The notes under the pieces are model-generated. The model saw nothing but the letters and a program-made list of their open reading frames with translations. It searched no databases and had not been told where the DNA came from. The translations under genes were made by a program, and so were the position numbers. Shown piece by piece: positions 1 through 5,475 of a stretch of 5,726 nucleotides of DNA (position 1 is its first letter; every line of letters begins with the position of its first letter). The stretch is from a virus (Duplodnaviria > Heunggongvirae > Uroviricota > Caudoviricetes), in IMG/VR virus record IMGVR_UViG_2700989507_000005. One strand, given 5' to 3'.

Positions 1-104
1 CATGTAGATGATAATTATTATCATTTTGCGGGTCCTTTCCGGCGATCCGACAGGTTACGGGGCGGCGACCTCGCGGGTTTTCGCTATTTATGAAAATTTT
101 CCGG
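1..104 (+). other. cos: Lambda-type cos core: phage right-end terminal segment (cosQ side, 1-59) plus cosN and flanking sequence that is near-identical to lambda
   Basis: Positions 1-59 (CATGTAGATGATAAT...CCGACAGGTTACG) match my recollection of the last ~60 nt of the lambda genome with a few substitutions. Positions 60-104 (GGGCGGCGACCTCGCGGGTTTTCGCTATTTATGAAAATTTTCCGG) match the first ~45 nt of the lambda left end. Similarity to lambda stops at about 105. Confidence 0.8.
60..71 (+). other. cosN: cosN 12-nt cohesive-end sequence GGGCGGCGACCT (terminase nicking site)
   Basis: Exact match to the lambda 12-nt 5' cohesive end, in the expected context ...GTTACG|GGGCGGCGACCT|CGCGGG, and about 185 bp upstream of the small terminase gene as in lambda. 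Confidence 0.8.
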
Positions 105-108
105 GATC

Positions 109-119
109 CATGTCCGGTT
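109..119 (-). repeat. R-like element, inverted copy (CATGTCCGGTT, reverse complement of AACCGGACATG)
   Basis: Exact reverse complement of the 11-mer found at 167-177 and 197-207. Confidence 0.5.
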
Positions 120-166
120 TCTCTTCAAGTTAACTATATGAAAAATATAAAAACAGGTCTTCTGTG

Positions 167-177
167 AACCGGACATG
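167..177 (+). repeat. R-like element, direct copy AACCGGACATG
   Basis: Exact 11-mer repeat; flanked by A in the same way as the third copy (GAACCGGACATGAAC versus AAACCGGACATGACC). Confidence 0.5.
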
Positions 178-196
178 AACAAAAAACAGACATGTA

Positions 197-214
197 AACC
201 GGACATGACCGGTT
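197..214 (+). repeat. R-like element, direct copy AACCGGACATG overlapping an inverted partial copy (composite near-palindrome AACCGGACATGACCGGTT)
   Basis: AACCGGACATG at 197-207; CATGACCGGTT at 204-214 differs from the inverted copy at 109-119 by one base. Confidence 0.5.
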
Positions 215-254
215 TTGTTGTGATTGTGAGGTGAGAGTTTTTGCGAGGTGAGGA

Positions 255-764
255 GTGGCTACGCAGACTGAAGTTGCCAGGCATTTAAGTCTGACCGATC
301 GCCAGCTTCGCAGATTGCAGAAATTGCCGGGTGCCCCGATATCGAATAAGCGAGGGCAACTGGATCTGGATGCCTGGCGCGATTTTTACATATCGTATCT
401 GAGGAGAAGTAAAAACGATGTGCCTGATGGCGATAGCGAAGACGACTATGAGGAGAAATTGCTTATTGCCAGATGGGAACTGACAGCAGAACAGGCTGTT
501 ACACAGCAGTTAAAAAATGAGGTGTCAAAAGGAAAACTTATTGACACCGGGTTCTGTATTTTTGCCCTCAGTAAGCTGGCAATGGCGTTATCCAGTACGC
601 TTGATTCCATCCCTTTATCCATGCAGCGACAGTTTCCTGATTTAACACCGCGCCATCTTGACCATCTGAAAACCCTTATTGCTAAGGGGGCAAATCAGTG
701 TGCGCGGGCAGGGGATAAATTACCGGATTTACTCGATGAATATATCAGAGCAACAACTGAATAA
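255..764 (+). CDS. nu1: Terminase small subunit (Nu1-like), 169 aa; N-terminal DNA-binding domain divergent from lambda, C-terminal half lambda-like
   Basis: GTG start at 255 preceded by GGTGAGGAG (Shine-Dalgarno); an in-frame stop at 249-251 rules out an upstream start. The C-terminal half (...TGFCIFALSKLAMALSSTLDSIPLSMQRQFPDLTPRHLDHL...LPDLLDEYI) aligns with my recollection of lambda gpNu1 (...TAFCTFVLSRIAGEIASILDGLPLSVQRRFPELENRHVDFL...IPGLLSEYI). The N-terminal ~75 aa is not recognisably lambda. The 3' end overlaps the large-subunit gene as in lambda. Confidence 0.85.
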   Translation: MATQTEVARHLSLTDRQLRRLQKLPGAPISNKRGQLDLDAWRDFYISYLRRSKNDVPDGDSEDDYEEKLLIARWELTAEQAVTQQLKNEVSKGKLIDTGFCIFALSKLAMALSSTLDSIPLSMQRQFPDLTPRHLDHLKTLIAKGANQCARAGDKLPDLLDEYIRATTE

Positions 765-2664
765 TATGATGGCTGCCGTTTCGGTTGCGCTGCAGCCTCT
801 GGTCAGGGTTGTACCAATGACGGCAGTTGAATGGGCTGATCAAAATTATTATCTGCCTAAAGAATCCTCATACGGTGAGGGCGAATGGAAAACGCTGCCA
901 TTCCAGATCGCCATTATGAACTGTATGGGTAACGACCAGGTTCGCACGGTTAACCTGATTAAATCTGCCCGTGTTGGCTATACAAAGATGTTGCTGGGGG
1001 TGGTCGGGTATTTTATTGAGCATAAATCCCGAAACAGTCTGCTTTTTCAGCCCACGGATTCTGCCGCTGAAGATTTTATGAAGTCTCACGTGGAGGCGAC
1101 GATTCGGAACGTGCCATGCCTGAAAGACCTTTCCCCATGGCTGGGTCGTAAACATCGTGACAATACTCTCACGCTGAAACGCTTTTCATCGGGCGTCGGT
1201 TTCTGGTGCCTGGGCGGCGCTGCCGCCAAAAACTACCGTGAAAAATCCGTGGACGTGGTCTGCTATGACGAACTTTCCTCGTTCGAGCCGGATGTCGAAA
1301 AAGAGGGCTCGCCAACCCTGCTGGGGGATAAGCGTATTGAGGGGGCGGTGTGGCCAAAATCCATTCGCGGCTCGACGCCTAAAATCAAAGGCACCTGCCA
1401 GATCGAAAAAGCCGCTAACGAGTCGGCGCATTTTATGCGTTTTTATGTGCCCTGCCCGCACTGTGGGGAGGCGCAGTATCTGAAATTTGGCGATGAGTCC
1501 ACGCCTTTTGGGCTTAAATGGGAGAAGGACAGCCCCGAAAGTGTTTTCTACCTCTGTGAACATCATGGCTGCGTGATCCATCAGTCTGAACTGGACCAGA
1601 GCAACGGGCGGTGGATCTGTGAAAACACGGGCATGTGGACCCGTGACGGTCTGACGTTTTTCAGCGCCCGGGGTGATGAAATTCCGCCGCCGCGCTCCAT
1701 CACGTTCCATATCTGGACGGCGTACAGTCCGTTTACCACCTGGGTACAGATAGTCTATGACTGGCTGGATGCACTGAAAGATCCCAACGGCCTGAAAACC
1801 TTTGTGAACACCACGCTGGGCGAGACCTGGGAAGAAGCCGTGGGCGAAAAACTCGATCACCAGGTACTGATGGATAAGGTGGTGCATTACACGGCGGCGG
1901 TACCTGCCCGGGTGGTTTATCTGACGGCGGGCATTGACTCGCAGCGAAACCGTTTTGAGATGTATGTCTGGGGATGGGCACCGGGAGAGGAAGCTTTTCT
2001 GGTGGATAAAATCATCATTATGGGCCGTCCCGATGAGGAAGAGACGCTGTTACGTGTGGATGCGGCGATCAACAAAAAATACTGCCATGCAGACGGAACC
2101 GAAATGACCATTTCCCGTGTCTGCTGGGACACCGGGGGGATCGATGGTGAAATTGTCTATCAGAGGTCAAAAAAACACGGTGTTTTCCGGGTGCTGCCGG
2201 TAAAAGGCGCATCTGTCTATGGCAAGCCGGTGATCACCATGCCGAAAACCCGCAATCAGCGGGGCGTGTATCTGTGTGAAGTGGGGACGGACACCGCAAA
2301 AGAAATTCTCTATGCCCGTATGAAAGCCGATCCCACTCCTGCGGATGAAGCCACGTCGTATGCCATCCGTTTTCCTGATGATCCGGAGATTTTTTCGCAG
2401 ACAGAGGCGCAGCAACTGGTCGCGGAAGAGCTTGTGGAGAAGTGGGAAAAAGGAAAGATGCGTCTGCTGTGGGATAACAAAAAGCGGCGTAACGAAGCGC
2501 TGGACTGCCTGGTGTATGCCTACGCGGCATTACGTGTGTCCGTGCAACGCTGGCAGCTTGATCTGGCTGTACTGGCAAAATCCCGGGAAGAAGAGACGAC
2601 CCGGCCAACCCTGAAAGAACTGGCAGCGAAGCTGTCCGGAGGAGTGAATGGTTACAGTCGCTGA
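736..2664 (+). CDS. A: Terminase large subunit (gpA-like), 642 aa
   Basis: Start chosen at ATG 736 (MNISEQQLNN...) rather than the ORF-track start at 679, because lambda gpA begins MNISNSQVN and lambda Nu1/A overlap in the same way. Extensive near-collinear similarity to lambda gpA as I recall it (TAVEWADQNYYLPKESSYGEGEWKTLPFQIAIMN; KSARVGYTKMLLGV; GDKRIEGAVWPKSIRGSTPK; HIWTAYSPFTTWVQIV; WDTGGID; KRRNEALDCLVYAYAALR). Length 642 aa versus lambda 641 aa. Stop TGA at 2662-2664. Confidence 0.95.
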   Translation: MNISEQQLNNMMAAVSVALQPLVRVVPMTAVEWADQNYYLPKESSYGEGEWKTLPFQIAIMNCMGNDQVRTVNLIKSARVGYTKMLLGVVGYFIEHKSRNSLLFQPTDSAAEDFMKSHVEATIRNVPCLKDLSPWLGRKHRDNTLTLKRFSSGVGFWCLGGAAAKNYREKSVDVVCYDELSSFEPDVEKEGSPTLLGDKRIEGAVWPKSIRGSTPKIKGTCQIEKAANESAHFMRFYVPCPHCGEAQYLKFGDESTPFGLKWEKDSPESVFYLCEHHGCVIHQSELDQSNGRWICENTGMWTRDGLTFFSARGDEIPPPRSITFHIWTAYSPFTTWVQIVYDWLDALKDPNGLKTFVNTTLGETWEEAVGEKLDHQVLMDKVVHYTAAVPARVVYLTAGIDSQRNRFEMYVWGWAPGEEAFLVDKIIIMGRPDEEETLLRVDAAINKKYCHADGTEMTISRVCWDTGGIDGEIVYQRSKKHGVFRVLPVKGASVYGKPVITMPKTRNQRGVYLCEVGTDTAKEILYARMKADPTPADEATSYAIRFPDDPEIFSQTEAQQLVAEELVEKWEKGKMRLLWDNKKRRNEALDCLVYAYAALRVSVQRWQLDLAVLAKSREEETTRPTLKELAAKLSGGVNGYSR

Positions 2665-2854
2665 ACTACAGGCGCTACGTCAGGCGCGCCTTGATTTATT
2701 AACCGGTAAACGGGTGGTGTCTGTCCAGAAAGATGGTCGCAGAATTGAATATACGGCGGCTTCTCTGGATGAGCTTAACCGGGCGATCAATGATGCGGAG
2801 TCGGTACTGGGGACAACCCGACGTCGCCGTCGTCCGCTGGGAGTGAGGTTATGA
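2648..2854 (+). CDS. W: Head-tail joining / head completion protein (gpW-like), 68 aa
   Basis: ATG at 2648 with GGAGG upstream; 68 aa, the same length as lambda gpW; strong similarity (LTGKRVVSVQKDGRRIEYTAASL versus lambda [23 protein letters not shown]); ends in an RRRRRP basic tail. Overlaps the 3' end of A by 17 nt. Confidence 0.9.
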   Translation: MVTVAELQALRQARLDLLTGKRVVSVQKDGRRIEYTAASLDELNRAINDAESVLGTTRRRRRPLGVRL

Positions 2855-3856
2855 AACGAACGCCTGTCCTGATTGATGTGAACGGCGTTCCGCTTCGTGA
2901 GAGTCTCAGCTACAACGGGGGCGGCGCAGGATTTGGCGGGCAAATGGCGGAGTGGTTGCCACCGGCGCAGAGTGCCGATGCAGCCCTGCTGCCTGCGTTG
3001 CGTCTGGGGAATGCCCGGGCAGATGATCTGGTGCGCAATAACGGGATAGCGGCCAATGCGGTGGCACTGCATAAGGATCATATTGTCGGGCATATGTTTC
3101 TGATCAGCTACCGTCCGAACTGGCGCTGGCTGGGGATGCGGGAGACTGCGGCAAAAAGTTTTGTCGATGAGGTGGAGGCGGCCTGGTCGGAATACGCCGA
3201 AGGGATGTCTGGCGAGATCGACGTGGAAGAGAAACGCACGTTTACGGAATTTATTCGTGAAGGTGTGGGCGTTCATGCGTTTAACGGCGAAATCTTTGTG
3301 CAGCCGGTCTGGGATACGGAGAGCACGCAACTGTTTCGTACGCGTTTTAAAGCCGTGAGTCCGAAACGGGTGGACACGCCAGGACACGGTATGGGGAACC
3401 GTTTTCTGCGGGCCGGGGTGGAGGTCGATCGATATGGCCGTGCCGTTGCGTACCATATCTGTGAGGATGATTTTCCGTTCTCTGGGAGTGGACGATGGGA
3501 ACGGATCCCGCGTGAACTTCCCACCGGGCGTCCGGCCATGCTGCATATTTTCGAGCCGGTGGAGGACGGGCAGACCCGTGGGGCCAATCAGTTTTACAGC
3601 GTAATGGAACGGCTGAAGATGCTCGATTCCCTGCAGGCAACACAGCTTCAGTCGGCCATTGTGAAAGCCATGTATGCAGCGACGATTGAAAGTGAACTTG
3701 ATACCGAAAAGGCCTTTGAATATATCGCCGGCGCGCCACAGGAGCAGAAGGATAATCCGCTTATTAATATTCTGGAGAAGTTCTCCAGCTGGTATGACAC
3801 GAATAGCGTGACGCTGGGCGGAGTCAAAATTCCGCACCTTTTCCCTGGTGATAATC
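2851..3856 (+). CDS. B: Portal protein (gpB-like), N-terminal ~335 aa only; 3' part lies in the N-run
   Basis: ATG at 2851 overlaps the W stop (ATGA). Similarity to lambda gpB (GGGAGFGGQ; DAALLP; GNARADDLVRNNG; ELFVQ..WDT; FEPVEDGQTRGANQFYSVME; LQSAIVKAMYAATIESELDT; GGVKIPHLFPGD). Reading runs into N at 3857; lambda gpB is 533 aa, so about 200 aa are not visible. Confidence 0.9.
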
Positions 3857-3933
3857 NNNNNNNNNNNNNNNNNNNNNNNNNNNNNNNNNNNNNNNNNNNN
3901 NNNNNNNNNNNNNNNNNNNNNNNNNNNNNNNNN
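3857..3933. other. Run of 77 N (undetermined or masked sequence; probable assembly gap)
   Basis: Seen directly. Flanking reading frames are portal N-terminus on the left and prohead protease interior on the right, so the portal 3' end and protease 5' end are missing. Confidence 0.95.
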
Positions 3934-5088
3934 CAGGTGCGGGGCATACTGCTGGACATTGACAGTCCGGGCGGGCAGGCCGCCGGCGCGTTTGACTGCG
4001 CTGACATGATTTACCGCCTCCGTCAGCAGAAGCCGGTCTGGGCACTGTGCAATGACACGGCCTGTTCTGCAGCCATGCTGCTGGCGTCGGCCTGCTCCCG
4101 ACGGCTGGTTACCCAGACATCCCGTATCGGCTCCATTGGCGTGATGATGAGCCATGTCAGCTATGCCGGTCATCTGGCGCAGGCCGGTGTGGATATCACG
4201 CTGATTTACTCAGGGGCGCACAAGGTGGATGGCAATCAGTTTGAAGCCTTACCGGCAGAGGTTCGCCAGGACATGCAGCAGCGCATTGATGCGGCGCGCC
4301 GGATGTTTGCCGAAAAAGTGGCGATGTTTACCGGTCTGTCTGTTGATGCCGTCACGGGAACAGAGGCCGCCGTTTTTGAAGGTCAGTCCGGCATTGAGGC
4401 CGGGCTGGCGGATGAATTAGTCAATGCGTCGGATGCCATCAGTGTGATGGCCACGGCGCTGAACAGTAATGTCAGAGGAGGCACTATGCCGCAATTAACT
4501 GCAACGGAAGCCGCCGCGCAGGAGAACCAGCGAGTGATGGGGATCCTGACATGCCAGGAAGCGAAAGGACGTGAACAGCTTGCCACGATGCTGGCAGGAC
4601 AACAGGGCATGAGCGTTGCACAGGCCCGGGCGATTCTGGCCGCGGCGGCACCGCAGCAGCCGGTGGCATCCACGCAGAGTGAAGCCGATCGCATTATGGC
4701 GTGTGAAGAAGCGAACGGTCGTGAACAACTGGCGGCAACGCTGGCGGCGATGCCGGAGATGACGGTGGAAAAAGCCCGCCCGATCCTGGCTGCTTCACCG
4801 CAGGCGGATGCCGGACCCTCACTCCGTGATCAGATCATGGCACTGGATGAGGCAAAAGGGGCTGAGGCGCAGGCTGAACAACTGGCTGCCTGCCCGGGAA
4901 TGACTGTGGAGAGCGCCCGGGCTGTGCTGGCTGCGGGATCAGGTAAGGCAGAACCGGTCTCTGCATCCACAACCGCCCTGTTTGAACGCATCATGGCGAA
5001 CCATTCACCGGCAGCGGTACAGGGTGGCGTGCCACAGACGTCAGCAGACGGTGATGCGGACGTGAAAATGCTCATGGCCATGCCATGA
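3934..5088 (+). CDS. C: Prohead protease / scaffold protein (gpC-like), C-terminal 384 aa; 5' end lies in the N-run
   Basis: Strong similarity to lambda gpC from the first resolved codon (GILLDIDSPGG...GAFDCADMI...KPVWALCNDTACSAAMLLASACSRRLVTQTSRIGSIGVMM...ITLIYSGAHKVDGN...GLADELVNASDAISVM). This is an S49 / ClpP-fold serine protease signature; the CSA motif aligns with the lambda NCSAG region. Stop TGA at 5086-5088. Confidence 0.9.
   Translation, partial: QVRGILLDIDSPGGQAAGAFDCADMIYRLRQQKPVWALCNDTACSAAMLLASACSRRLVTQTSRIGSIGVMMSHVSYAGHLAQAGVDITLIYSGAHKVDGNQFEALPAEVRQDMQQRIDAARRMFAEKVAMFTGLSVDAVTGTEAAVFEGQSGIEAGLADELVNASDAISVMATALNSNVRGGTMPQLTATEAAAQENQRVMGILTCQEAKGREQLATMLAGQQGMSVAQARAILAAAAPQQPVASTQSEADRIMACEEANGREQLAATLAAMPEMTVEKARPILAASPQADAGPSLRDQIMALDEAKGAEAQAEQLAACPGMTVESARAVLAAGSGKAEPVSASTTALFERIMANHSPAAVQGGVPQTSADGDADVKMLMAMP
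4486..5088 (+). CDS. nu3: Scaffold protein (Nu3-like), nested in-frame within the 3' third of the C-like gene, 200 aa
   Basis: In-frame ATG at 4486 preceded by AGAGGAGG at 4474-4481 (a strong Shine-Dalgarno inside a coding region). Length 200 aa versus lambda Nu3 about 201 aa. Same in-frame nested arrangement and shared stop with C as in lambda (established for lambda; inferred here). Confidence 0.6.
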   Translation: MPQLTATEAAAQENQRVMGILTCQEAKGREQLATMLAGQQGMSVAQARAILAAAAPQQPVASTQSEADRIMACEEANGREQLAATLAAMPEMTVEKARPILAASPQADAGPSLRDQIMALDEAKGAEAQAEQLAACPGMTVESARAVLAAGSGKAEPVSASTTALFERIMANHSPAAVQGGVPQTSADGDADVKMLMAMP

Positions 5089-5124
5089 AGTCAGTGCTGA
5101 TCATCAACAGGAGGTTTTTACAAT

Positions 5125-5475
5125 ATGGTAACGAAAACCATCACTGAACAGCGTGCGGAAGTACGTATTTTTGCCGGTAATGATCCGGCTCATACCGCCA
5201 CAGGCAGCAGCGGGATTTCCTCGGCAACACCGGCACTGACGCCCCTGATGCTGGATGAAGCCAGCGGGAAACTGGTGGTCTGGGACGGACAGAAAGCCGG
5301 TAGTGCAGTTGGCATACTGGTACTGCCGCTTGAAGGCACAGAGACGGTACTGACCTATTACAAGTCGGGGACCTTTGCGACGGAGGCAATCCGCTGGCCT
5401 GAAAGTGTGGATGAACACAAAAAGGCAAATGCCTTTGCCGGCAGTGCCCTGAGTCACGCGGCGCTGCCGTAACAC
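5125..5475 (+). CDS. D: Head decoration protein (gpD-like), 116 aa
   Basis: ATG at 5125 with CAGGAGG at 5108-5114. Similarity to lambda gpD (DPAHTATG; TPLMLDE; KLVVWDG; AVGIL; YYKSGTF; FAGSA). Stop TAA at 5473-5475. Confidence 0.9.

What the first reader, a model, noticed from the sequence alone, without database searches (positions are those of the whole stretch)
60..490. Mosaic packaging specificity: lambda-identical cosQ/cosN joined to non-lambda cosB repeats and a divergent small-terminase DNA-binding domain
Sequence through about position 104 matches the lambda genome ends as I recall them almost exactly, including the 12-nt cohesive end. From about 105 it diverges completely, and the expected R-element region instead carries three copies of AACCGGACATG (109-119 inverted, 167-177, 197-207) plus partial copies. 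The N-terminal ~75 aa of the small terminase subunit (255 to about 485), which is the DNA-recognition domain in lambda gpNu1, is likewise unlike lambda, whereas its C-terminal gpA-interaction half and the whole gpA are lambda-like. This is the pattern expected for a phage with a lambda-type nicking site but a different cosB/Nu1 specificity, as classically described for phage 21 versus lambda. I cannot tell from memory whether the R-like repeats here match the phage 21 R elements or are a further specificity class.
Basis: partly seen in the sequence, partly recalled or inferred. Interest (0 to 1): 0.55.

Follow-up and report, generated by a model that had tools for sequence, protein, structure and literature searches.

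The report
Third lambda-type phage packaging specificity
This prophage has the DNA-cutting site of phage lambda and the head genes of phage 21, but its own DNA-recognition repeats and matching recognition domain in the small terminase subunit, a packaging "address label" that has not been characterised although about a fifth of complete E. coli genomes carry it.

Summary
Window 60-104 equals lambda bp 1-45, and all similarity stops at 104/105. CATGTCCGGTT occurs exactly three times (109-119, 167-177 and 197-207, the last two inverted), with two partial copies.

The repeats are neither lambda's nor phage 21's R elements. They form a further class with the core TCCGGTT, laid out like lambda cosB: R3, an IHF-like site, an inverted R2 54 bp on, then a third site.

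The first ~55 residues of the small terminase subunit are not covered by Pfam's Nu1 model. They are predicted to fold as the same winged helix-turn-helix.

In 21 related loci the base just 5' of the core tracks residue 20 of the predicted recognition helix. Arg goes with G and Asp/Asn/Thr/Glu with T, with no exception and in two separate lineages. This is strong comparative evidence that the repeats are the subunit's binding sites.

The large subunit is 93% identical to phage 21 and 66% to lambda. The foreign cassette is cosB, the whole small subunit and the first ~60 residues of the large subunit.

It is a new, widespread member of a known kind. Binding and exclusivity are untested.

The parts
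30..36 (+). cosQ heptamer GGGTCCT (packaging termination signal)
   Evidence: Same heptamer, at the same distance from the nick, as the cosQ annotated in phage 21 and as in lambda. It is present in all enterobacterial relatives examined.
58..73 (.). cosN. The cohesive-end sequence GGGCGGCGACCT is 60-71. Inferred nicks lie between 59/60 (top strand) and 71/72 (bottom strand).
   Evidence: Identical to the lambda and phage 21 left ends. Nicking itself is inferred, not shown.
72..104 (.). Conserved spacer between cosN and cosB (lambda bp 13-45), including TTATGAAAATTT at 88-99. Similarity to lambda ends at 104.
   Evidence: 45/45 identity to lambda 1-45. The TTATGAAAATTT element ends 13-14 nt before the R3 core in all eight enterobacterial relatives.
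109..122 (+). R3-like site CATGTCCGGTTTCT. The core TCCGGTT is 113-119 (lambda bp 54-60). The specificity base G is at 112.
   Evidence: Exact repeat. Its position relative to cosN is fixed in relatives. The core is invariant and the flanking base covaries with small-subunit residue 20.
131..143 (+). Candidate IHF site (I1-like) TAACTATATGAAA, followed by an A/T-rich tract
   Evidence: Matches 7 of 9 specified positions of YAANNNNTTGATW. It sits 18 nt after the start of the R3 core. The same position scores 9/9 in the Klebsiella and E. coli P0013 loci and 8/9 in the Salmonella and Citrobacter loci. The TAACT is 2 bp nearer cosN than the TAACT of lambda/21 I1, which lies at bp 74-78.
167..177 (-). 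R2-like site (AACCGGACATG on the + strand), inverted relative to R3
   Evidence: Exact repeat. The spacing between the R3 and R2 cores is 54 bp in all eight complex-cosB relatives.
184..194 (-). Degenerate copy (AAACAGACATG, 2 mismatches)
   Evidence: It is changed in PhiR12_1 and not conserved in other relatives, so it is probably not a functional site.
197..207 (-). Third site (R1-like), in the R2 orientation
   Evidence: Exact repeat. It is conserved 30 bp after R2 in PhiR12_1 and Enterobacter, and 42 bp after R2 in Klebsiella.
204..214 (+). Overlapping 10/11 copy in the R3 orientation (CATGACCGGTT). With 197-207 it forms the palindrome 196-215, a terminator-like hairpin.
   Evidence: hairpin -11 kcal/mol, z = -1.9. 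The + orientation copy is not conserved in the Enterobacter locus.
255..416 (+). Small-terminase N-terminal DNA-binding domain (aa 1-54). Predicted recognition helix is aa 15-22 (DRQLRRLQ), with Arg20.
   Evidence: Not covered by Pfam Phage_Nu1. AlphaFold2 pLDDT 82 with strand-helix-helix-wing-helix order. Nearest folds are lambda-like small-terminase domains and MerR-type winged HTH. hhalign to the lambda-type N-terminus gives 56% probability.
417..764 (+). Small-terminase linker (aa 55-62, low confidence) and helical C-terminal part (oligomerisation and large-subunit binding, by homology to Nu1)
   Evidence: Pfam Phage_Nu1 at 67.9 bits over aa 49-150. 46% identical to lambda Nu1 and 40% to 21 gp1.
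736..2664 (+). Large terminase subunit (642 aa), overlapping the small-subunit gene by 29 nt. The first ~60 aa (736-915) belong to the foreign cassette.
   Evidence: 93% identical to phage 21 gp2 over aa 18-642 and 66% to lambda gpA. The first 60 aa are 48% identical to 21 but 88-95% to loci that share the small-subunit C-terminus.

Best explanation
Window 30-764 is the packaging-recognition module of a lambda-like cos phage, set in a phage-21-type head-gene block. It carries a packaging specificity class that has not been characterised; I call it W here.

Proposed mechanism, by analogy with lambda. [quoted passage not shown] IHF bends the DNA at about 131-143, so that a dimer of binding domains can bridge R3 and R2. 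The small subunit's C-terminal part holds the large subunit by its co-inherited N-terminus. The large subunit's nuclease then nicks the lambda-identical cosN at 59/60 and 71/72.

Within the class, the base just 5' of the TCCGGTT core is read with helix residue 20: Arg with G, as here, and Asp/Asn/Thr/Glu with T.

Shown here: sequence identities, repeat positions, conserved layout, covariation and predicted fold. Inferred: binding, bending, nicking, and exclusivity towards lambda and 21.
For: 1. The repeats are real and clustered.

2. Their layout matches lambda/21 cosB.
- R3 starts at lambda bp 50 (lambda and 21 R3 are at bp 50-65).
- An IHF-like site lies 18 nt after the start of the R3 core. 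It scores 9/9 to consensus in two relatives and 8/9 in three.
- The R3-to-R2 spacing is constant at 54 bp.

3. R3 is fixed 13-14 nt after the conserved TTATGAAAATTT in eight loci from Escherichia, Klebsiella, Salmonella, Citrobacter and Enterobacter. The surrounding sequence differs.

4. The binding domain and cosB change together.
- Proteins with a near-identical C-terminus but an N15/Monarch-type N-terminus have GGTTGTTGT repeats (L097). That is the published N15 R3 (PMC4669245).
- Within the W class, every site in a locus has G before TCCGGTT when residue 20 is Arg. This holds in 5 loci, including L248 from a separate simple-cosB lineage related to Pseudomonas phage LPPA33.
- Every site has T when residue 20 is Asp, Asn, Thr or Glu (16 loci). 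There are no exceptions.
- Lambda (Asn21, T at bp 56) and phage 21 (Arg21, G at bp 56) show the same pairing at the aligned positions.

5. The predicted fold of aa 1-54 is strand-helix-helix-wing-helix.
- Foldseek top hits are all MerR-type winged HTH domains, including three lambda-like small-terminase domains at TM about 0.6.

6. The cassette works in real phages. PhiR12_1 to PhiR12_5 have a 99.4% identical small subunit and the same repeats, and their records name laboratory E. coli hosts.

7. The small- and large-subunit ORFs in the window are intact.
Against: - No binding, footprint or packaging experiment exists for this class in the literature I could search.
- Fold-search E-values for the small domain are not significant (0.4-2). 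Sequence homology to the Nu1 N-terminus is weak (hhalign 56%).
- The best motif alignment to lambda/21 R3 needs a 3-bp shift towards cosN. In lambda a shift of more than 1-2 bp harms packaging (PMC4669245). So either the docking geometry differs or the motif resemblance is coincidental.
- The third site is in the opposite orientation to lambda/21 R1.
- The window's own IHF match is only 7/9.
- Published genetics assign lambda/21 discrimination to residues 20 and 24, not 21. The Arg-G parallel is therefore suggestive only.
- The covariation rests on at least two independent switches, not on many.
Confidence: 0.8

Rival explanations
1. The repeats are small-subunit binding sites, but the specificity is not exclusive. 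Because the site resembles both 21 (CATGTCGG) and lambda (CGTTTCCG), the W terminase and the 21 or lambda terminase may package each other's DNA, fully or in one direction, as N15 terminase packages lambda DNA.
For: The three R motifs align position by position. The window shares G at motif position 4 with 21 and C at position 7 with lambda. T-type relatives such as LPPA33 read CGTTTCCGG, identical to lambda R3 over 8 bases. One-way cross-packaging has a precedent (PMC4669245).
Against: The binding domain is 18% identical to lambda and 21 over 60 residues. Lambda and 21 differ at only 4 of 9 recognition-helix residues (my recollection of the Feiss laboratory's lambda/21 genetics paper, not read here) and at 2 key base pairs, yet exclude each other more than 1000-fold (PMC4669245). 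The site is displaced 3 bp relative to lambda/21 R3.
Confidence: 0.15
2. The repeats serve something other than packaging. They could be an intrinsic terminator or attenuator between the lysis genes and the head genes (hairpin 196-215 followed by a T-rich tail), or operators for a host or phage regulator.
For: The consensus scan calls two terminator-like sites, 196-215 and 101-117, against 0.7 expected. The 190-226 hairpin folds at -11 kcal/mol.
Against: The hairpin's z-score is only -1.9, and 17 of 200 shuffles fold as well. The palindrome is not kept in the Enterobacter or Klebsiella loci, whereas the single-orientation sites are. A terminator does not explain the fixed distance of R3 from cosN, the 54-bp R3-R2 spacing, or the coordinated change of all sites with a residue of the small subunit. 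No sigma-70-like promoter is found in 1-800.
Confidence: 0.04
3. In this particular genome the module is an inactive remnant of a defective prophage. The sequence features are then historical rather than functional here.
For: Many E. coli carry 2-4 copies. In O157:H7 PV15-279 the adjacent large-subunit and portal genes are annotated as frameshifted. The window contains a run of N, so the portal and protease genes cannot be checked.
Against: The small- and large-subunit ORFs in the window are full length. All three repeats are exact. Near-identical cassettes occur in propagating phages. This rival concerns the state of this copy, not what the element is.
Confidence: 0.1

Closest known systems
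Phage 21 cos and gp1 (small) / gp2 (large) terminase
   Same: - cosQ is identical and so is the 12-nt cohesive end. The next 29 bp (21 bp 13-41) differ at two positions.
- The large subunit is 93% identical from residue 18, and the head genes are 94-98% identical at nucleotide level.
- cosB has the order R3, IHF site, inverted R2, third site, with 58-59 bp between the R3 and R2 centres.
- The R motif begins CATGTC in both.
   Different: - The R motif is CATGTCCGGTT here and CATGTCGG(N)CCTT in 21.
- The small subunit is 18% identical over its first 60 residues and 38% over its last 100. The first 60 residues of the large subunit are 48% identical.
- The third site is inverted relative to 21 R1.
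- R3 lies 3 bp nearer cosN.
Phage lambda cos and gpNu1 / gpA
   Same: - cosN and the following 33 bp are identical (45/45).
- cosQ, the tripartite cosB logic and the 12-nt cohesive end are the same.
- The small subunit has the same domain order, and the winged helix-turn-helix fold is predicted.
- The two terminase genes overlap in the same way.
   Different: - Lambda's R motif is CGTTTCC(G/T)TTCT.
- Nu1's N-terminus is not detectably similar by BLAST or Pfam.
- gpA is only 66% identical.
N15 / Monarch packaging class (Feiss laboratory; PMC4669245)
   Same: - It is a further specificity class on a lambda-type cosQ/cosN.
- It exists in both a complex (R3-I1-R2-R1) and a simple (R3 plus a remote inverted copy inside the small-subunit gene) form.
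- The W class shows the same two forms. Enterobacterial loci are complex. Pseudomonas LPPA33 and Aeromonas phiARM81ld have R3 plus an inverted copy 172 nt into the gene.
- N15-type N-termini are found fused to W-type C-termini.
   Different: - The N15 R motif is GAGGTTGTTGTT.
- The N15-type domain is clearly related to lambda's (hhalign 93%), whereas the W-type is not (56% to lambda-type, 6% to N15-type).
PICI cos sites with Rpp redirecting proteins (PMC9026076, PMC6739421)
   Different: The locus encodes a full terminase and head genes. It is a phage, not a satellite.

Membership tests
Lambda-like cos site (cosQ-cosN-cosB) | 12-nt 5' cohesive-end sequence closely matching lambda, flanked by conserved nick-site bases | tested here: met
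   Window 60-71 is GGGCGGCGACCT, identical to lambda and 21. Actual nicking cannot be tested with these tools.
Lambda-like cos site (cosQ-cosN-cosB) | cosQ heptamer upstream of cosN | tested here: met
   GGGTCCT at 30-36, at the same offset as the annotated cosQ of phage 21.
Lambda-like cos site (cosQ-cosN-cosB) | R3 about 50-65 bp from the cohesive end, with R2 inverted beyond an IHF site | tested here: met
   R3 is at bp 50-63 and inverted R2 at bp 108-118. The layout is conserved in 8 loci.
Lambda-like cos site (cosQ-cosN-cosB) | IHF site (I1) between R3 and R2 | tested here: inconclusive
   The window scores 7/9 to YAANNNNTTGATW at 131-143. The same position scores 9/9 or 8/9 in five relatives. 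Binding was not tested.
Lambda-like cos site (cosQ-cosN-cosB) | R1 in the same orientation as R3 | tested here: not met
   The conserved third copy (197-207) has the R2 orientation. Only a 10/11 copy (204-214) has the R3 orientation, and it is not conserved in relatives.
Phage_Nu1 small terminase (Pfam PF07471) | Profile match above the gathering score | tested here: met
   67.9 bits against a cut-off of 30, but only aa 49-150 matching profile positions 62-163.
Phage_Nu1 small terminase (Pfam PF07471) | Nu1-type N-terminal DNA-binding domain recognisable by sequence | tested here: not met
   No Pfam coverage of aa 1-48. tblastn to lambda and 21 starts at aa 64-73. No PDB sequence hit. hhalign probability is 56%.
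Phage_Nu1 small terminase (Pfam PF07471) | Winged helix-turn-helix fold of the N-terminal domain | tested here: met
Phage_Nu1 small terminase (Pfam PF07471) | Binds its cognate R sites and the large subunit | not testable with these tools
   Supported indirectly by domain-site covariation and by co-inheritance of the small-subunit C-terminus with the large-subunit N-terminus.
Phage 21 packaging specificity | R sites matching CATGTCGG(N)CCTT and a gp1-type recognition helix (RTIERWQS) | tested here: not met
   The sites are CATGTCCGGTT and the helix is DRQLRRLQ.
Lambda packaging specificity | R sites CGTTTCC(G/T)TTCT and a Nu1 recognition helix (RTIQNWQE) | tested here: not met
N15/Monarch packaging specificity | R sites GAGGTTGTTGTT and an N15-type N-terminus | tested here: not met
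   That motif and N-terminus occur in L097/P0069, not in the window.

The most novel reading that the evidence does not exclude
The W class is a truly separate packaging specificity whose members cannot be packaged by lambda, 21 or N15 terminases. Within it, specificity is retuned by a one-residue, one-base-pair switch: Arg20 with G, or Asp/Asn/Thr/Glu20 with T, immediately 5' of TCCGGTT. That switch arose at least twice and mirrors the Asn21/T versus Arg21/G difference between lambda and 21. This would give a natural, stepwise route by which packaging specificities diverge. R3 sits 3 bp nearer cosN than in lambda, which would mean a different anchoring geometry. Shiga-toxin-producing and other E. 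coli carry 2-4 prophages with the same cassette, so the shared label would also decide which resident prophages can package one another's DNA.
Probability: 0.4. Interest if true: 0.55.

Novelty: new member of a known kind. Interest (0 to 1): 0.42.

Why it matters
Packaging specificity decides which DNA a terminase will put into capsids. It therefore decides which co-resident prophages, satellites and hybrid phages can mobilise each other.

Only a few lambda-type specificities have been dissected (lambda, 21, N15/Monarch). The literature I could search does not mention this one.

It is nevertheless common. It occurs in 1167 of 5426 complete E. coli genomes at 1861 places, often 2-4 per genome, including O157:H7 and O145. 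That is as common as the 21 type (1194 genomes).

The clean residue-to-base covariation offers a ready-made experiment on how a winged helix-turn-helix changes its target. The nested exchange units illustrate how selection keeps interacting parts together during phage mosaicism. Those units are cosB with the DNA-binding domain, and the small-subunit C-terminus with the large-subunit N-terminus.

For a specialist it is an expected kind of diversity rather than a surprise.

Tried and rejected
- Two scans of the species-representative genome collection gave nothing usable. The protein-pattern scan with the 75-aa domain confirmed no relative. The one enterobacterial hit, Mixta L148, was also chance.
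- A viral-contig scan with the mixed alignment returned only 99%-identical E. coli copies, useless for covariation. Scans with the divergent proteins P0027 and the LPPA33 small subunit worked.
- A sequence search of the PDB with the whole small subunit found nothing.
- Fold searches with the full-length model were swamped by long-helix matches. A domain-only model was needed.
- Literature searches for the repeat strings and for the PhiR12 phages found nothing relevant.
- Phage 21 identity of the repeats and domain: rejected.
- A PICI satellite: rejected, because a full terminase and head genes are present.
- A terminator role for the repeats: rejected as the main explanation.
Full report
**What is in the window.** The window holds a lambda-type cos site followed by head genes. 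These are a small terminase subunit (255-764, GTG start, 169 aa), a large subunit (736-2664), a head-tail joining gene, a portal gene and further head genes. RefSeq annotates the same ORF in E. coli O157:H7 as WP_000235436.1, 'terminase small subunit', with the large subunit starting 29 nt before its end.

**Checking the observation.**
- Lambda bp 1 corresponds to window 60. Window 60-104 is identical to lambda 1-45.
- Window 1-104 is 100% identical to many lambda-like phages and 96% to lambda itself.
- cosQ GGGTCCT is at 30-36, at the offset annotated for phage 21.
- Nucleotide similarity to lambda and to 21 stops at 104 and at 100 respectively, and resumes only near 810.
- The 11-mer AACCGGACATG occurs exactly at 109-119 (reverse strand), 167-177 and 197-207. 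Partial copies lie at 184-194 and 204-214.

**Are the repeats phage 21's R elements?** No.
- The annotated phage 21 genome (OL657228) gives R3 at 50-65, I1 at 74-86, R2 at 107-122 (inverted) and R1 at 150-166. The core is CATGTCGG(N)CCTT.
- Lambda's core is CGTTTCC(G/T)TTCT. The window's is CATGTCCGGTT.
- The three motifs align position by position. The window shares G at motif position 4 with 21 and C at position 7 with lambda. In lambda and 21 these positions are bp 56 and 59, which published genetics identify as critical for discrimination (PMC4669245).
- That alignment requires the window motif to sit 3 bp nearer cosN.

**The small subunit.**
- By tblastn only residues 64/73-166 resemble lambda Nu1 (46%) or 21 gp1 (40%).
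- Pfam Phage_Nu1 covers only residues 49-150. No PDB sequence matches.
- Full-length relatives in the phage collection are the PhiR12 phages (99.4%), Pseudomonas LPPA33 (43%), Aeromonas phiARM81ld (35%), E. coli vB_EcoM-705R4 (33%) and, more distantly, another Aeromonas phage and a Vibrio phage.
- A profile comparison of the first 62 residues with the lambda/21-type N-terminus gives 56% probability. It aligns residues 4-33 with lambda 5-34. The lambda-type and N15-type N-termini score 93% with each other.
- An AlphaFold2 model of residues 1-58 (pLDDT 82, pTM 0.64) has strand, helix 4-10, helix 15-22, a wing and helix 38-54.
- Its nearest solved structures are all MerR-type winged helix-turn-helix domains, including three lambda-like small-terminase domains (7lw0, 7lwr, 7lxs) and the small subunit in 6hn7. 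TM-scores are about 0.6 but E-values are not significant.
- The domain is therefore a highly diverged member of the same fold, not a new fold.

**The backbone is phage 21, not lambda.**
- The large subunit is 93% identical to 21 gp2 over residues 18-642 and 66% to lambda gpA.
- At nucleotide level, window 810-3856 matches 21 at 93.9% and window 3934-5177 at 98.4%.
- Identity to 21 rises from under 50% to about 90% between 790 and 940.
- Compared with the window, phage 21 shows 18% identity in the first 60 residues of the small subunit and 38% in its last 100. It shows 48% in the first 60 residues of the large subunit and 92% in residues 61-200.

**Two nested exchange units.**
- An E. coli locus (P0056, L096) has an N15-type N-terminus, 12% identical to the window. 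Its small-subunit C-terminus is 86% identical and its large-subunit N-terminus 95% identical.
- The DNA-binding domain with its cosB therefore exchanges on its own.
- The small-subunit C-terminus travels with the large-subunit N-terminus. This matches the known interaction between these parts in lambda and 21 (PMC9026076).

**Comparative test of the repeats.** I collected loci encoding relatives of the small subunit and aligned the upstream regions on cosN.
- In eight loci from Escherichia, Klebsiella, Salmonella, Citrobacter and Enterobacter, a TCCGGTT core lies 13-14 nt after the conserved TTATGAAAATTT.
- An inverted copy lies exactly 54 bp further on.
- In seven of the eight, an IHF-like match sits 18 nt after the start of the first core. 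It is 9/9 to YAANNNNTTGATW in two loci, 8/9 in three and 7/9 in the window and PhiR12_1. In the Enterobacter locus the best match lies 29 nt after the core start.
- A third copy in the R2 orientation is present in four of them.
- Loci whose protein has an N15/Monarch-type N-terminus have GGTTGTTGT repeats in the same layout (L097). This matches the published N15 R3 GAGGTTGTTGTT.

**Covariation within the class.**
- The base before the core is G in every site of the five loci whose helix residue 20 is Arg. These are the window, PhiR12_1, the Citrobacter locus, the Enterobacter locus and L248.
- It is T in every site of the sixteen loci with Asp, Asn, Thr or Glu at residue 20.
- L248 belongs to the lineage of simple-cosB relatives of Pseudomonas phage LPPA33, so the switch happened at least twice.
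- At the aligned positions, lambda has Asn21 with T at bp 56 and phage 21 has Arg21 with G.
- Published genetics credit residues 20 and 24, so I treat this parallel as suggestive only.
- One relative with Gly at residue 20 and other helix changes (L226) has GCCGGTT instead of TCCGGTT.

**Mechanism.** By analogy with lambda (PMC9026076 and PMC4669245):
1. The winged helix-turn-helix binds R3 and R2 across an IHF-induced bend.
2. The C-terminal part holds the large subunit.
3. The large subunit nicks cosN 12 bp apart.

The sequence facts, layout, covariation and predicted fold are shown here. Binding, bending, nicking and exclusivity are inferred.

**Points against a simple copy of the lambda arrangement.**
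- The motif is shifted by 3 bp.
- The third site is inverted.
- The window's own IHF match is weak.

**Evidence that the cassette is functional.** The PhiR12 phages carry it and their records name laboratory E. coli hosts. The small- and large-subunit ORFs in the window are intact.

**Rivals.**
- A terminator role is suggested by the 196-215 hairpin. The hairpin is weak and not conserved. It also cannot explain the spacing or the covariation.
- Non-exclusive specificity remains possible, given the motif resemblance and the N15 precedent.
- This particular copy could be defective. The run of N prevents checking the portal and protease genes.

**Prevalence and novelty.**
- The 386-nt segment covering cosB and the DNA-binding domain (window 105-490) is found in 1167 of 5426 complete E. 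coli genomes. It occurs at 1861 places, with a median of 2 and up to 4 per genome.
- The equivalent 21-type segment is in 1194 genomes at 1386 places. The lambda type is in 4013 genomes; the top hits are annotated nohD, the Nu1-like gene of a cryptic prophage. The N15/Monarch type is in 41.
- In the phage collection only the five PhiR12 records carry the segment.
- I found no paper describing these repeats or this domain as a packaging specificity. The searchable library lacks most subscription journals.
- I class it as a new member of a known kind: a further specificity class of lambda-type cos packaging, common and so far ignored, but built and probably working like its characterised relatives.

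Noticed in passing
window 3857-3933 (run of N) and ORF 2851-5088: The run of N replaces about 927 bp relative to phage 21. Window 3856 matches 21 position 3829, and window 3934 matches 21 position 4757. The 745-aa ORF 2851-5088 is therefore an artefact that fuses the portal gene to the protease/scaffold gene across the masked stretch.
   Followed up: partly
window 810-5177: From about residue 60 of the large subunit onward, the head-gene block is 94-98% identical at nucleotide level to phage 21 (OL657228), not to lambda (about 66-68%).
   Followed up: yes
L099 (Pseudomonas phage LPPA33), L100 (Aeromonas phage phiARM81ld), L241, L244, L248, L251, L252: Distant relatives have a 'simple' cosB. 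A TCCGGTT copy, doubled to TCCGGTTCCGGTT in several of them, lies just upstream of the small-subunit gene. One inverted copy lies exactly 172 nt into the gene, in the part that encodes the variable linker. This parallels the remote rR2 site described for phage N15 (PMC4669245).
   Followed up: partly
L096 (E. coli, P0056) and L097 (Klebsiella, P0069): In these small subunits an N15/Monarch-type DNA-binding domain and GGTTGTTGT repeats are joined to a C-terminus 67-86% identical to the window's. The large-subunit N-terminus is 67-95% identical. These are natural domain-swap hybrids.
   Followed up: partly
L226 (IMG/VR UViG_2833053935_000002): This relative has recognition helix SERTLRGLTK and a single upstream site, ATTTGCCGGTTT. 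The core is GCCGGTT instead of TCCGGTT. It may be a further sub-specificity.
   Followed up: no
E. coli complete genomes; L306 = O157:H7 PV15-279: The cassette occurs 2-4 times in many genomes, including O157:H7 and O145. In PV15-279 the adjacent large-subunit and portal genes are annotated as frameshifted. Some copies therefore sit in defective prophages that share a packaging label with intact ones.
   Followed up: no
window 84-284, minus strand: A 66-aa ORF runs antisense across the whole cosB. A shorter ORF in the same place is annotated 'hypothetical protein' in PhiR12_1 and in several RefSeq genomes. It is most likely a spurious call over the repeat region.
   Followed up: no
P0107 (protein from the 50%-identity library, no context): This 2465-aa protein matches residues 8-50 of the window's DNA-binding domain in 19 separate stretches (E 2e-13). 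It has no Pfam family. It looks like a giant array of this helix-turn-helix unit.
   Followed up: partly
L088 (E. coli, P0013): This relative has the W-class cosB and cosQ, but the sequence at the cosN position is different: GGGGGACGGCAGACGCGC, against GGGCGGCGACCTCGCGGG in the window. The cohesive end itself may vary within the class.
   Followed up: no
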